From assembly GCA_951406725.2 (NCBI GenBank), contig OX597831.1:16802001-16866000 (forward strand): a stretch of 64,000 bases of DNA, read 5' to 3'. This stretch comes from Octopus vulgaris. Its lineage: Eukaryota. Each line of letters opens with the position of its first letter. The stretch's first letter is position 1. The notes below the pieces were generated by a model that was not told the DNA's origin, searched no databases, and worked only from the letters and a program-made list of their open reading frames with translations. The position numbers were made by a program, and so were the translations under genes. Positions 1 to 64,000 of this stretch are shown here, in pieces.

Positions 1-170
1 ACATATAACATACAGAAAATTGCACTACTAGGCACTGCACACATCCTACGCAGAACACTTTCCATACAATAACCATCAGAGCATCACAACAAATCACAAC
101 ACATACCCAAGGCACACAGAGCTGCGCTCGGTAGTGAAGTGAAAGCACGCTATAAAAATAAAACTACTGA
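1..170 (+). mobile_element. 3' end of R4/Dong-type RLE non-LTR retrotransposon, family C
   Basis: Frame 1 reads TYNIQKIALLGTAHILRRTLSIQ* (stop 70-72). The 3' UTR ends AAACTACTGA directly before (AAT)n, as in the copy ending at 63131. Confidence 0.85.
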
Positions 171-243
171 ATAATAATAATAATAATAATAATAATAATA
201 ATAATAATAATAATAATAATAATAATAATAATAATAATAATAA
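171..243 (+). repeat. (AAT)n microsatellite
   Basis: Pure AAT run. Confidence 0.98.
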
Positions 244-258
244 CAAAAACATAATAAC

Positions 259-874
259 AAACATAATTTTCGGTTTAAAAAAAAAAAAAAACCTTTTTTT
301 TTTTTAGACATTCATTAGTACAACATCCCCACCCCCAAATATATGGCACACTAGGCATAACAACAACATGTTGTCATTTGAGGTCTCTGGGTGAGACTTG
401 GAGCCAACTTGTACAAATATAAAGCAAAAGTCAAACATAGAATAATAATAATAATAATAATAGAAATCAGCAAAATGTGGAAGCTGAAGACTAAAACAAT
501 ACCTGTTGTCATAGGTGCCCTGGGAATGATAGCAAAAGGGGCTAATAGCTACCTAACTCAGATACCAGGAAACCCCAAAATGGCAGAAATTCAAAAGATG
601 GTGCTCATGGAAACTGCTCATATCCTACGCAAAATACGCACAATACTTTCTATGTAATCTCAAGGTTTAAAAAAACATAATTTTCGGTTTTAAAAAGAAA
701 AAAATTTTTTTTTTTAGACATTCATTAGTACAACACCAAAAACTCCCCCCCCAAAAAAATATATGGCACACTAGGCATACCAACAACATGAACTTCCAAC
801 CTGTTGTCTCTTCAGGTCTCTGTGTGAGACTTGGAGCCAACATGTACAAATATAAAGCAAAACTCAAACATAGA
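259..874 (+). mobile_element. Two stacked, severely 5'-truncated Dong-type family B pieces: a 3'-UTR-only piece (259-441) and an RLE C-terminus plus UTR (462-874)
   Basis: Reads EISKMWKLKTKTIPVVIGALG...AHILRK...LSM*. Both UTRs end TCAAACATAGA followed by (AAT)n, like the family B copies ending at 30068, 48053 and 61915. Confidence 0.85.
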
Positions 875-1053
875 ATAATAATAATAATAATAATAATAAT
901 AATAATAATAATAATAATAATAATAATAATAATAATAATAATGATAATAATAATAATAATAAATGTCTATTACTACTATCGATTCAAACTGTTTGAACGA
1001 TTGGACCCCACCGCACAAAAAATTAAATTAAAAAAAATTACATGAGCCACACA

Positions 1054-1481
1054 TACTACTACTACTACTACTACTACTACTACTACTACTACTACTACTA
1101 CTACTACTACTACTACTACTACTACTACTGCTACTGCTGCTGCTGTGGCTACTACTGCTACTACTACTGCTGCTACTGCTGCTACTGCTGCTGCTACTAC
1201 TACTGCTGTTGCTGCTACTACTTCTGCTGCATTTACTGCTGCTGCTACCGCTGCTGCTTCTACAAGTACGGCCACTACTACTGCTGCAACTGCTGCTACT
1301 GATGCTGCTGCTACCAATGCTGCTGCTGCTACTACTACTGGTACTACCACATTTGCTGATACTACCACTGCTGCTGCTGATGCTGTTGCTGCTGCCACTA
1401 CTATTGCTACTTCCACTGCCGCTCCAACTGCTGACAATAATATTCCTGCTGCTAACAACTACTGGGGCTGCTGCTGCTGCT
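1054..1481 (+). repeat. (TAC)n grading into degenerate (GCT/ACT)n
   Basis: Direct reading; duplicated at 7241-7665. Confidence 0.95.
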
Positions 1482-1660
1482 AAAGATGATAAATGAGACT
1501 CCTCTATGAAAATTAGTGGTTAAATCTTATCTTTAATTTTTTTTATTATTGTTATTGTTATTGTTGTTATTATTATCATGTTTTTTTCATTTTTAAAAAT
1601 TTTTTAATGAAAACTTAATAATAATTTAACTTTACTTAAAAAGAAAATTTTTTTAAATTA

Positions 1661-60559: not shown

Positions 60560-61915
60560 CGTTAACTGGTTAATTACTGAAATATATAAACTTGAGAGAA
60601 AAATACGAAAACTGTTGACAATGTATATAATGCACTACCCCAAGGAAGATACAGAACGACTTTATCTGCCAAGAAAAGAGGGAGGCCGTGGAAGTTTACG
60701 ACTGGCAATAACAATGAAGATTGCTACAATTGGCCTAGACACCTACCTGAAAAACTCTGAGGATTGGATGTTAAAACTTGTCTCAAGACATGAAAACAAG
60801 AAAGCATCATACTCAGTAATAAAACAGGCAAAGGGATATCTAAGTGAATTCCGAATACAACAAATTTCGGAATGAGAGTTAGACATACAAGAAACAAGCA
60901 CAGAAAAAGCTAGGCGCATTAAAACCCGTGCCAAAACTGCGGCCTTAGATATTCTGAATAATAAATTGCAAGGAAAACATCTCTATGGCAGATACCCAAA
61001 GAGGGAGAGTGGTGCAGATATTGACAAAGCCCTAAAACATCAATGGCTAATGGCCGCTGGCTTAAAATCTGAAACAGAAGGCATTATCATAGCAGCTCAA
61101 GATCAATGCCTACCAACAAGGAACTACCAGGCCAACATATTAAAGAACGGCAGTAGCACAAGATATCGTGTATGTCAACAACAAAAGGAAACCATTCATC
61201 ATGTTGTTTCCAAGTGCAGTCTTCTAGCGCCTACAGAGTATCTGTACAGGCATGATGTATCTGCACAATATATTCAAGAACAATATATTCAAGAACCTGG
61301 AATTTCCCCATGAAAAACACTGGTGGGAACACAAAACAACCCAGTGCTTGAAAATGACCACATCTCTCTCTTCTGGAACTTCAGCATTCAAACTGACAGA
61401 AAGATAGATGCAAGTAGGCCAGATATCTTATTTAAAGACTTCAGACAAAGATCATGCCTCCTCATTGATATTACTGTCCCAATCGATATCTGTCAAGACC
61501 TCCCAAAAACTGAGCAAAAATAAAGATCTTGAAATAGAAATCAGCAAAATATGGAATCTGAAAACTAAAACAATACCTGTTGTTATAGGTACCCTGGGAA
61601 TGATAGCAAACGCGGCTGATTGCTACCTAACTCAGATACCAGGAAATCAAAAACTGGCAGTAATTCAATAGATAGTGCTCATGGGAGCTGCTCATATCCT
61701 ACGCAAAATACTTTCTATGTAATCTCAAGGTTTAAAACAAACATAATTCTCGTTTTTTTTAGAAATTCACTAGTAAAAGACCAAAAAGCAAATAAAACAT
61801 ATATATGGCACACTAGGCATAACAACAACATGAACTTCGAACTTATTGTCTCTTGAGGTCTCTGGGTGAGACTTGGAGCCAACTTGTCCAAATATAAAGA
61901 AAAAGTCAAGCATAG
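60560..61915 (+). mobile_element. 5'-truncated Dong-type element, family B
   Basis: VNW...RKIRKLLTM, GLKSETEG.IIAAQDQ, RPDIL; the family B UTR ends GTCAAGCATAGA before AAT. Confidence 0.9.
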
Positions 61916-62169
61916 AATAATAATGATAATAATAACGACATTAATAATAATATTGAAAATAATAATAATAATAATAATATTAATAATAATAATAATAATA
62001 ATAATAATAATAATAATAATAATAATAATAAAAATAATAATAATAATAATAATAATAATAATAATATTAATGGTAATAATAATAATAATAATAATAAAAA
62101 TAATAATAATAATAATAATAATAATAATAATAATAATAATAATAATAATAATAATAATAATAAATAAAC

Positions 62170-63131
62170 ACAAAGAATAAGAATAAGATGAAGAAACAAC
62201 AAAAGCTATAAAACAAATGAAATCCAAACTAAAAATAGAACAGCAACGAGCCATGATAAAACGATGGCAAGAAAAACCCCTTCATGGTAAATACTGCACT
62301 AAACTAAACGCAAAAGAAATAGACAAAGAAAAATCCCAGCAATGGTTGAGAAGCTCAGGACTCAAAGCAGAAACAGAGATATTTTTAATTACAGAACAAG
62401 ACCAAAGCCTCCCCACCAGAAATTACCAAAAACATGTAATGAAAAGAAATATTACAAGTAACTGCAGAATATGTGGAGATGGACAAGAAACAATAAATCA
62501 TATTATCTCTAGCTGCCCAGTCCTGAAAAAGAAGGAATATATTCACAGACATGACAGAGTGGGAACCTACATATATTGGAAGCTTTGCCAACAGTATGGA
62601 ATAACAACAGAAAAAAAGATGGTATAGGCACACACCAGAAAAGGTCACAGAAAACGAGAAAGCAACCATACTCTGGGATATGCCGATACACACAGATAGA
62701 GAAATTAAGGCCAACAGACCAGATATAGTTGTCAGAGATCATGAAGAAAAAAATGCTTTCTAATTGATGTATCAATACCGGCAGATGACAACGTGTCTCT
62801 AAAAGAAATGGAGAAACTCTCAAAATACAAAGACCTGGAAATAGAGGTAACCAGAATGTGGAACCTGAAAACAAAAACAATTCCTATCATAGTAGGTGCA
62901 TTAGGCATGATAAAAAAATATTCAGACAAATACATAACAAAAACACCAGGACTTACAAACACATATATCATACAGAAAATTGCACTACTAGGCACTGCAC
63001 ACATCCTACGCAGAACACTTTCCATACAATAACCATCAGAGCATTACAACAAATCACAGCACATACCCAAGGCACACAGAGCTGCGCTCGTTAGTGAAGT
63101 GAAAGCACGCTAAAAAAAATAAAACTACTGA
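62170..63131 (+). mobile_element. 5'-truncated Dong-type element, family C
   Basis: WQEKPLHGKY, CRICG...ETINHIISSC, HRHDRVG, RPDIVVRD, HILRRTLSIQ*. The UTR ends AAACTACTGA before AAT. Confidence 0.92.
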
Positions 63132-63203
63132 ATAATAATAATAATAATAATAATAATGATAATAATAATAATAATAATAATAATAATAATAATAATAATA
63201 ATA

Positions 63204-63757
63204 AATGCTCTGATGCTGTACCAGCCAGTGGCTCTGATGGCCTCTGATCTCAACTGATTGGAAGTGTTATCATGTACATTGTTTTGTCTTGGTATAAAAG
63301 ATGGGCTACAGCAAATATTCTGCTCACTACCACAGATTTGCTTGCCAGTTGTTTGCCTTTAACCAGTTGAGCATGTCTCTTAGTGTGACCATATGTGCAT
63401 CTCTGATCGCGGGTAGAAGTAGTGGGGAGCATTATAGCCATGTGTTGAGAGGGATTCTTTGGGGTTTGAATAATTCACCTCTGGAAACATGGGTGATTTT
63501 TTCAACATCCTTAAACAACCCTTATTCAGGGACCGTTTGAGCAGGATGGGTTACTCAAACTGAAGAAAATTCTAACTGGGCCCCACCTGCAAGGTCATGT
63601 ACTGTTTATCTTGATAAGAGATCACCATGTCGCGCACATATGGTTTTAATGCATGTGCCTGGTGTACACTTATCAGACGGGTAGTCATGATGTGTACATT
63701 GGGCTTCGTATATTTTACCCCAGTGACACTGTGATGGCATGATCTGCTCTCTCACTC
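63204..63757 (+). mobile_element. Non-coding ~550 bp insert bounded by (AAT)n on both sides (putative non-autonomous element or long 3' UTR)
   Basis: Higher GC than the flanks, no TE protein motifs seen, ends CTCTCTCACTC directly before (AAT)n. Confidence 0.5.
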
Positions 63758-63779
63758 AATAATAATAATAATAATAATA

Positions 63780-64000
63780 TAGTATGGCATGGATCGATTA
63801 CAGAAACACGTTTGATAGCATCCCCCACACATTGATCCTCGAAACACTAGCCATTAACAAAGCAGCACCAACAATTATAGAATATATTGGAGACTCTAAA
63901 AAAAAAGACAAACATTGCTACAGCTCCTACGAAAAGAGGAACTCATGAAAAACCAAAGTCATTTCCATTGGAAGAGGAATATTCCAGGGAGAAACGCGCT
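63780..64000 (+). mobile_element. Start of another 5'-truncated family C Dong element, running off the window
   Basis: Collinear with 18155-18370 (SMAWIDY...GIFQG). Confidence 0.85.

What the first reader, a model, noticed from the sequence alone, without database searches (positions are those of the whole stretch)
1..64000. A guild of 3-4 Dong/R4-type retrotransposon families building polarised head-to-tail arrays in (AAT)n
Seen: ~19 pieces, all on the + strand. Nearly all have a precise family-specific 3' end joined to AAT read in one orientation, and the families interleave (C-B-B-A'-...-C-A-C-B at 1-20.8 kb; A-B-C-?-C at 56-64 kb). Known: Dong of Bombyx mori (R4 clade) targets TAA repeats through an RLE endonuclease. 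Inference: each insertion splits a tract and leaves target on both sides, so arrays can perpetuate themselves as shared landing pads, architecturally like TRAS/SART telomeric arrays but interstitial. Co-orientation of four separate clusters across 64 kb, on the same strand as the candidate host exons, is not explained by targeting alone.
Basis: partly seen in the sequence, partly recalled or inferred. Interest (0 to 1): 0.7.

Follow-up and report, generated by a model that had tools for sequence, protein, structure and literature searches.

The report
Retrotransposons stacking in AAT microsatellites
Several Dong-like jumping-gene families and a short non-coding element sit in AAT microsatellites in one fixed direction and pile up there in rows across this genome, likely by repeated insertion into the same tract, while the shared direction of separate clusters in this window most likely reflects a tandemly duplicated block rather than a new mechanism.

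Summary
Confirmed: 19 Dong/R4-like pieces (families A, A', B, C, D) plus a ~555-bp non-coding element (Q), all on +. AAT is a target, not only a tail: same-strand AAT lies at the 5' junction in 35/40 C, 15/22 A, 18/24 B and 28/30 Q copies, never ATT alone. Mixed-family head-to-tail arrays are ordinary here: in 990 kb of arbitrary DNA 11/29 clusters are multi-family and 21/21 neighbours are co-oriented, but adjacent clusters agree only 13/24 times. The 'unexplained' co-orientation dissolves: the window lies in a direct tandem array of about six ~35-60-kb units; clusters 1 and 4 are paralogues, three pieces are a 98% duplicate, and an inverted paralogue carries minus-strand elements. Paralogous tracts give a natural series (D; B-A-D; B-B-A-C-E-D) showing stepwise filling. 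Young copies land beside old ones about as often as AAT supply predicts. TAA targeting by Dong is published, including for molluscs, and this scan already noted Dong/TAA families elsewhere in this genome. Least explained part: Q, a young, structured, AAT-targeted element with no tRNA head and no tail shared with these families. No tree with named Dong/R4/Rex6 could be made; host exons unconfirmed.

The parts
1..169 (+). Family C, 3' end of a young 5'-truncated copy (starts about 224 bp before the window, after AAT)
   Evidence: L006
243..5072 (+). B fragment, B (459-873), A' (about 962-5072), separated by AAT; first copy of a 6.2-kb tandem duplicate
5073..6416 (+). AAT tract (degenerate then pure)
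6417..11258 (+). Second copy of B-B-A' (98.6-99.5% identical to the first outside the tract)
11259..13942 (+). 2.7-kb AAT tract
13943..16406 (+). Old family C copy from reference position 1718, with internal AAG expansion; same insertion as copies at 112.2 and 148.2 kb
   Evidence: (19-21 shared changes, about 3 expected)
16619..18040 (+). Family A 3' part; 5' side is AAT followed by ATT
18155..20097 (+). Family C from reference position 2066; same 5' junction as 63781 and 155.8 kb
20254..20765 (+). Old family B piece without its 3' end; founder-age resident of site X, shared with paralogues at -40.3, 67.9 and (inverted) 185.6 kb
20766..52700 (.). One unit of the direct tandem segmental duplication (about six units, -68 to +214 kb in window coordinates)
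28284..32296 (+). Site Y: AAT, AAG, B (28764-30068), AAT, A (30200-30853), short AAT, D (30876-32107), TAC tract
45514..48257 (+). Site Z: AAT, B (45670-48052), AAT
49640..50330 (+). Site W: Penelope-type repeat with internal AAT tract; empty here, filled with Dong copies in two of six paralogues
   Evidence: identity as Penelope-type from motif look and earlier scan notes
55108..60518 (+). Full-length family A: two ~470-bp 5' monomers, degraded RT-CCHC-RLE ORF; AAT tract 54912-55107 at its 5' side
60557..61915 (+). Family B from reference position 1029; same odd junction as the copy at 149.7 kb
62163..63130 (+). Family C, 5'-truncated
63204..63757 (+). Element Q: ~555-bp non-coding, AAT-flanked, high-copy retroposon-like element
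63781..64000 (+). Family C from reference position 2066 (continues to about 65.77 kb, then E and B)

Best explanation
Several families of Dong/R4-like non-LTR retrotransposons sit in (AAT)n tracts in one fixed orientation throughout this genome and likely insert there by endonuclease-primed reverse transcription, so mixed head-to-tail arrays likely build up by repeated insertion, while the co-orientation of the window's clusters most likely comes from the tandem duplication in which they lie. Shown: AAT on both sides and on one strand; one intact RT-CCHC-RLE ORF; empty and filled versions of the same paralogous tract; duplication of array modules. Inferred: the RLE would nick the ATT strand and the freed end would prime reverse transcription, as in R2; each event leaves AAT on both sides; tracts then lengthen by slippage, which enlarges the target; unequal exchange copies and deletes modules; Q likely borrows an AAT-specific RT/endonuclease.
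For: 5' junction same-strand AAT: C 35/40, A 15/22 (plus 1 mixed), B 18/24, Q 28/30, ATT-only 0 (best hits, biased to young copies); in 990 kb of arbitrary DNA 18/27 Dong pieces (12/12 at >=89% identity) against 1.1% of random 40-mers. 30/30 identical young C ends join AAT, some into tracts interrupted within 1-4 units. Intact 1213-aa ORF with invariant RT, CCHC and PD..D/K residues among 98 rows; best sequence and fold matches are R2 proteins. Site Y series and site W empty in 4, filled in 2 units. Neighbours of young C copies range from 70 to 99% identity to their references, as expected for sequential insertion. Within-cluster 21/21 co-oriented, between adjacent clusters 13/24. Tandem units collinear; B at 20.3, 67.9, -40.3 and inverted 185.6 kb form one clade (0.98).
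Against: 6 of 22 A, 6 of 24 B and 9 of 27 unbiased Dong pieces lack AAT at the mapped 5' end (some are AAG, internal breaks or reference ends). Five of six independent tract sites in the array are on + (p=0.22), and one arbitrary block had 6 of 6 clusters on +, so a modest local strand bias is not excluded. By tract count (55/150) young C copies are enriched beside occupied tracts (22/37, p=0.006); only by AAT bases (47%) is this non-significant (p=0.14). The C copies sharing junction 2066 form no supported clade. The array's high Dong load (46%) is only partly explained by duplication. No named Dong was available for a tree; nicking was not tested; the 98% duplicate could be an assembly artefact.
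Confidence: 0.85

Rival explanations
1. Co-orientation is imposed by the host gene or by transcription: selection or insertion bias favours one strand across the locus, on top of targeting.
For: 73 of 73 library hits between -58 and +184 kb are on + (bounds chosen after seeing the data); a candidate signal-peptide exon at 40902-40943 is on + in seven places; one arbitrary block had all 6 clusters on +.
Against: Those hits reduce to five + sites and one - site; the inverted paralogue at 185.6-189 kb keeps its elements in reverse; adjacent clusters elsewhere agree 13/24; no exon was confirmed.
Confidence: 0.12
2. Occupied tracts actively attract new insertions (for example by open chromatin, read-through transcription or cis preference), so arrays are true hotspots.
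For: 22 of 37 young C copies have a Dong or Q neighbour against 55 of 150 tracts (p=0.006); very high load in the array.
Against: Weighted by AAT bases the expectation is 47% (p=0.14), and for Dong neighbours alone 14/37 against 36% (p=0.87). Small sample; the background includes tracts of young copies.
Confidence: 0.2
3. AAT is only a 3' tail, and arrays are concatemers made by template jumping in single events.
For: Short tandem repeats of the elements' own first bases at C and Q 5' ends suggest the RT does jump or slip; two old Q copies have AAT only at the 3' side.
Against: First elements of clusters have 5' AAT; paralogous empty sites hold the tract; neighbours differ widely in age.
Confidence: 0.04

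Closest known systems
Dong (Bombyx mori), DongAg, DongBg and ostracod Dong1/2; R4 clade (PMC3812793, PMC7998251, PMC3774820: passages read)
   Same: Single ORF with RT and C-terminal restriction-like endonuclease, no N-terminal zinc finger, insertion into (TAA)n in the same sense (TAA precedes the 5' end); reported for insects, molluscs and cnidarians.
   Different: Here at least five families in one window and more elsewhere share the target and interleave; no 5' HDV-like ribozyme was found (weak test); family A has ~470-bp 5' monomers; a non-coding co-resident (Q). Placement beside named Dong was not tested.
Dong-R4 LINEs of Octopus vulgaris (PMC13282606 part 1 of 3 and passages; PMC8967140 passages)
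   Same: Five recently active Dong-R4 families with 1129 insertions are reported; Dong-R4 is expanded in coleoids.
   Different: In the text searched, 'target site' and 'nested' do not occur and no arrays are described; supplement not read; family correspondence not tested.
R2 retrotransposon proteins (PDB 9nl3, 9nl2, 9dou, 8gh6)
   Same: Best sequence and fold matches over RT to RLE; template for the inferred mechanism.
   Different: 15-20% identity in the fold search; R2 targets 28S rDNA and has N-terminal zinc fingers (PMC7998251).
TRAS/SART in (TTAGG)n telomeric repeats (recalled; one search gave listings only); Utopia/U2 tandem arrays (PMC4640811, legend only)
   Same: Target-specific elements accumulating in a repeated target with fixed orientation.
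   Different: TRAS/SART are recalled as two-ORF APE elements at telomeres; these are one-ORF RLE elements at interstitial sites (16.8 Mb into an 84-Mb contig).

Membership tests
R4/Dong clade | Single ORF with RT and C-terminal restriction-like endonuclease | tested here: met
   One 1213-aa ORF; RVT_1; RPD..D..K residues 94-100% conserved except R (82%) in 98 rows; R2 best matches. Intact only for family C; A, A', B, D, E seen in broken copies.
R4/Dong clade | C-terminal CCHC finger before the RLE | tested here: met
   C-x2-C-x8-H-x4-C at 99-100% conservation; zf-RVT below cut-off in C of L151, above it in the window copy.
R4/Dong clade | No N-terminal zinc finger | tested here: met
   No cysteine in residues 41-440 of the family C ORF nor in residues 1-40.
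R4/Dong clade | N-terminal Myb/SANT-like domain (PMC7998251) | tested here: inconclusive
   Confident small helical domain with two invariant Trp; no Pfam Myb hit; domain not searched alone.
Dong | Insertion into (TAA)n with repeat on both sides | tested here: met
R4/Dong clade | RT phylogeny groups with named Dong, R4, Rex6 | not testable with these tools
   No hit among the 120 listed is named Dong, R4 or Rex6; the quick tree is unrooted and has no named reference.
Dong | 5' HDV-like self-cleaving ribozyme (PMC3774820) | tested here: inconclusive
   No Rfam match; a rough descriptor written from memory, with no positive control, found none in C, A, A' or Q.
Dong | Endonuclease nicks the TAA repeat | not testable with these tools
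   Needs a biochemical assay.
TRAS/SART telomeric arrays | APE endonuclease, two ORFs, telomeric repeat target (recalled) | tested here: not met
   One ORF, RLE; interstitial position.
SINE (for Q) | Small-RNA-derived Pol III head | tested here: not met
   No tRNA by ARAGORN in 5 Q loci; no convincing Rfam match in Q.
SINE (for Q) | 3' tail shared with a partner LINE | tested here: not met
   No similarity to A, A', B, C, D, E at word size 7; none of 234 Dong-like 3' UTRs matched Q. Other LINE clades not tested.
SINE (for Q) | Non-coding, 5'-truncated copies with intact 3' end | tested here: met
   Longest stop-free frame 59 aa; of 28 hits, 15 lack only the 5' end and 1 lacks only the 3' end.

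The most novel reading that the evidence does not exclude
Q is a microsatellite-targeted non-autonomous retroposon of a new type: about 557 nt, structured, with no tRNA head and no tail shared with its helpers, mobilised by Dong enzymes, present in tens of thousands of copies and able to seed new AAT tracts. With at least nine Dong-like families and AAT-bearing Penelope repeats it forms a genome-wide community that makes, lengthens and fills its own target.
Probability: 0.3. Interest if true: 0.6.

Novelty: new member of a known kind. Interest (0 to 1): 0.35.

Why it matters
Dong-type TAA targeting is known, so the core is expected. What is useful: (1) paralogous tracts give a rare series of empty and filled sites showing how microsatellite arrays grow; (2) several deeply diverged families share one target, against the usual picture of one lineage per site; (3) an intact young ORF makes microsatellite recognition by an RLE directly testable; (4) Dong-like pieces and Q make up roughly 2.7% and 0.8% of arbitrary DNA here, so the process shapes this genome's microsatellites; (5) it warns that long-range co-orientation in one window can come from segmental duplication.

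Tried and rejected
Host exons: the look-up of sequencing runs listed no RNA holder; contigs of eight presumed RNA runs laid on 20.8-28.3 kb and 39.0-41.1 kb covered only repeats and left both candidate exons uncovered, which is no evidence either way. Single-sequence fold was useless (pLDDT 34); redone with an alignment. Rfam: nothing at gathering score; only microsatellite-driven miRNA hits by E-value. Module shuffling between the site X paralogues (A before or after B) was considered and dropped: the A copies share almost no changes, so they are independent insertions. Family D flanks could not be sampled genome-wide (one search gave coordinates only). The careful tree did not finish; only the quick tree is reported, with two further families left out for too few residues. 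Two papers were not held, so the original Dong report and the O. bimaculoides SINE description were not read. Literature searches for a Dong-dependent SINE or for Dong arrays found no such description; subscription papers and Repbase were not searched, so this is weak.
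Full report
Setting. The window is G000:C18:16,802,001-16,866,000 in a 2.8-Gb genome. It looks like an octopus genome by repeat content; I did not establish its identity. Coordinates outside 1-64,000 below are window coordinates extended into 200 kb fetched on each side.

Observation. AAT tracts are almost all on the + strand. 17 of 19 have a family-specific 3' end joined to AAT; 17 of 19 have AAT at the 5' side. 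Family A is full length from 55,108, with two ~470-bp 5' monomers (37 of the 40 best hits span monomer and body).

What the elements are. An intact family C copy at 81.9-85.9 kb encodes 1213 aa: RT, CCHC finger and PD..D..K endonuclease residues that are nearly invariant in 98 aligned rows, and no N-terminal cysteine. Sequence and fold searches rank R2 proteins first. This matches the R4/Dong description in PMC7998251 (passages), which also gives (TAA)n as the target in most insects, molluscs and cnidarians; PMC3812793 (passages) lists Dong, DongAg and DongBg. No named Dong, R4 or Rex6 sequence was among the 120 hits listed, so clade placement rests on anatomy and target. In a quick unrooted tree the eight families from this genome need six label changes (at least two forced by strong branches): probably several old lineages. 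Further AAT-joined 3' ends (about four more types) appeared among 11 unassigned of 234 ends.

Target or tail. All 30 loci with an identical young C end continue in AAT. At the 5' junction same-strand AAT was found in 35 of 40 C loci, 15 of 22 resolved A loci (8 unresolved, 1 mixed), 18 of 24 resolved B loci (6 unresolved) and 28 of 30 Q loci; ATT alone never. These are best hits, biased to young copies, and include the window's own copies. In 990 kb taken at five arbitrary places, 18 of 27 Dong pieces (12 of 12 at >=89% identity) and 12 of 23 Q pieces had 5' AAT, against 1.1% of random 40-mers. AAT is a target.

Arrays are general; long-range co-orientation is not. In the same 990 kb, 50 pieces form 29 clusters, 11 multi-family; neighbours within clusters are co-oriented 21 of 21 times, adjacent clusters 13 of 24 (p=0.84). 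One block had 6 of 6 clusters on +.

The window lies in a tandem duplication. Masked self-comparison shows about six collinear, direct units between -68 and +214 kb, 84-92% identical. The five best genome hits of family D are the paralogous copies here. Cluster 1 (1-20.8 kb) and cluster 4 (55-68 kb) both end at the unit start and share residents: B at 20.3 and 67.9 kb (25 shared changes, 3 expected) and the C junction at 18,155 and 63,781 (no supported clade for these C copies). B-B-A' is duplicated at 98%. So the window has at most 15 independent Dong insertions at three independent sites; p=0.25 for agreement. Across the array five sites are + and one is - (p=0.22). An inverted paralogue of the unit start at 185.5 kb carries the same old B and its neighbours on -. 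73 of 73 hits from -58 to +184 kb are +; outside, 8 + and 15 - (bounds set after the fact).

Growth seen in paralogues. Site Y holds D alone behind a short tract at -57.7 and 121.5 kb, B-A-D at -31.9 and 28.3 kb, and B-B-A-C-E-D at 76.6 kb, where C is the intact young copy. Site W, the internal AAT tract of a Penelope-type repeat, is empty in four units and filled in two. This is direct support for repeated insertion into one tract. Of 37 young C loci scored (2 of 39 could not be scored), 22 have a Dong or Q neighbour; 47% of AAT bases and 55 of 150 tracts in arbitrary DNA are so placed (p=0.14 and 0.006). Supply of long tracts explains most of the stacking; active attraction is not excluded.

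Mechanism. Shown: orientation, flanks, coding anatomy, empty and filled sites, module duplication. Inferred from R2: nick on the ATT strand, priming, frequent 5' truncation, target left on both sides. Inferred from the sequence: slippage lengthens tracts; unequal exchange copies or deletes modules.

Element Q. 557 nt; 29 copies 98-100% identical to one of them; 8,649 first-look candidates; about 65,000 pieces by rough extrapolation; longest frame 59 aa; folds better than all 100 shuffles (z -3.5); truncated from the 5' end; co-oriented with Dong neighbours in 7 of 7 loci. No tRNA head, no Rfam family, no similarity to A-E, and only a weak 3' hairpin. A Dong helper is likely but unshown; an earlier scan note mentions a Tx1 family preferring (ATT)n as another candidate. 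I could not compare Q with curated cephalopod SINEs.

Host gene. A candidate signal-peptide exon (40,902-40,943) recurs on + in seven places and a candidate acceptor exon (24,395) in five; neither was confirmed.

Verdict. Real and well supported, mostly expected from known Dong biology; the surprising claim is most simply explained by segmental duplication. PMC13282606 (part 1 of 3 and passages; supplement not read) reports five active Dong-R4 families in Octopus vulgaris without target analysis in the text searched. New member of a known kind; interest 0.35.

Noticed in passing
window 63204-63757; L252:1495-2051: Q: young, structured, AAT-targeted non-coding element without tRNA head or shared LINE tail; some copies carry tandem repeats of their first ~17 bases.
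   Followed up: partly
window 55108-56140: Family A 5' UTR consists of ~470-bp tandem monomers, present in many genomic copies; possible internal promoter repeats.
   Followed up: partly
L151:360-450 (window 81.86-81.95 kb); L018: Full-length C copies start with one to four tandem copies of a ~26-bp unit directly after AAT.
   Followed up: partly
window 28546-28763, 15092-15522; L022, L137, L046: (AAG)n tracts at 5' junctions or at an internal Glu-coding stretch of C; possibly slippage products of these elements.
   Followed up: no
window 40902-40943 and 24395-24470: Candidate exons of an unidentified, possibly secreted, gene repeated in the tandem units.
   Followed up: partly
window 53678-54910: Two divergent ORF remnants around the window's only long ATT tract; Penelope-like by eye, no Pfam match.
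   Followed up: partly
window 41500-44790 (+) and 35317-35700 (-): Other LINE remnants shared by the duplicated units: an endonuclease-RT element on + and an RT fragment on -.
   Followed up: no
112.2-114.5 kb in window coordinates (L095-L096): A C copy sharing its 5' junction with one resident and internal changes with another; possibly a recombinant that deleted the intervening array.
   Followed up: partly
-179 to -131 kb and 217-264 kb in window coordinates: Two further local duplication clusters (88-98% and about 70% identity).
   Followed up: no
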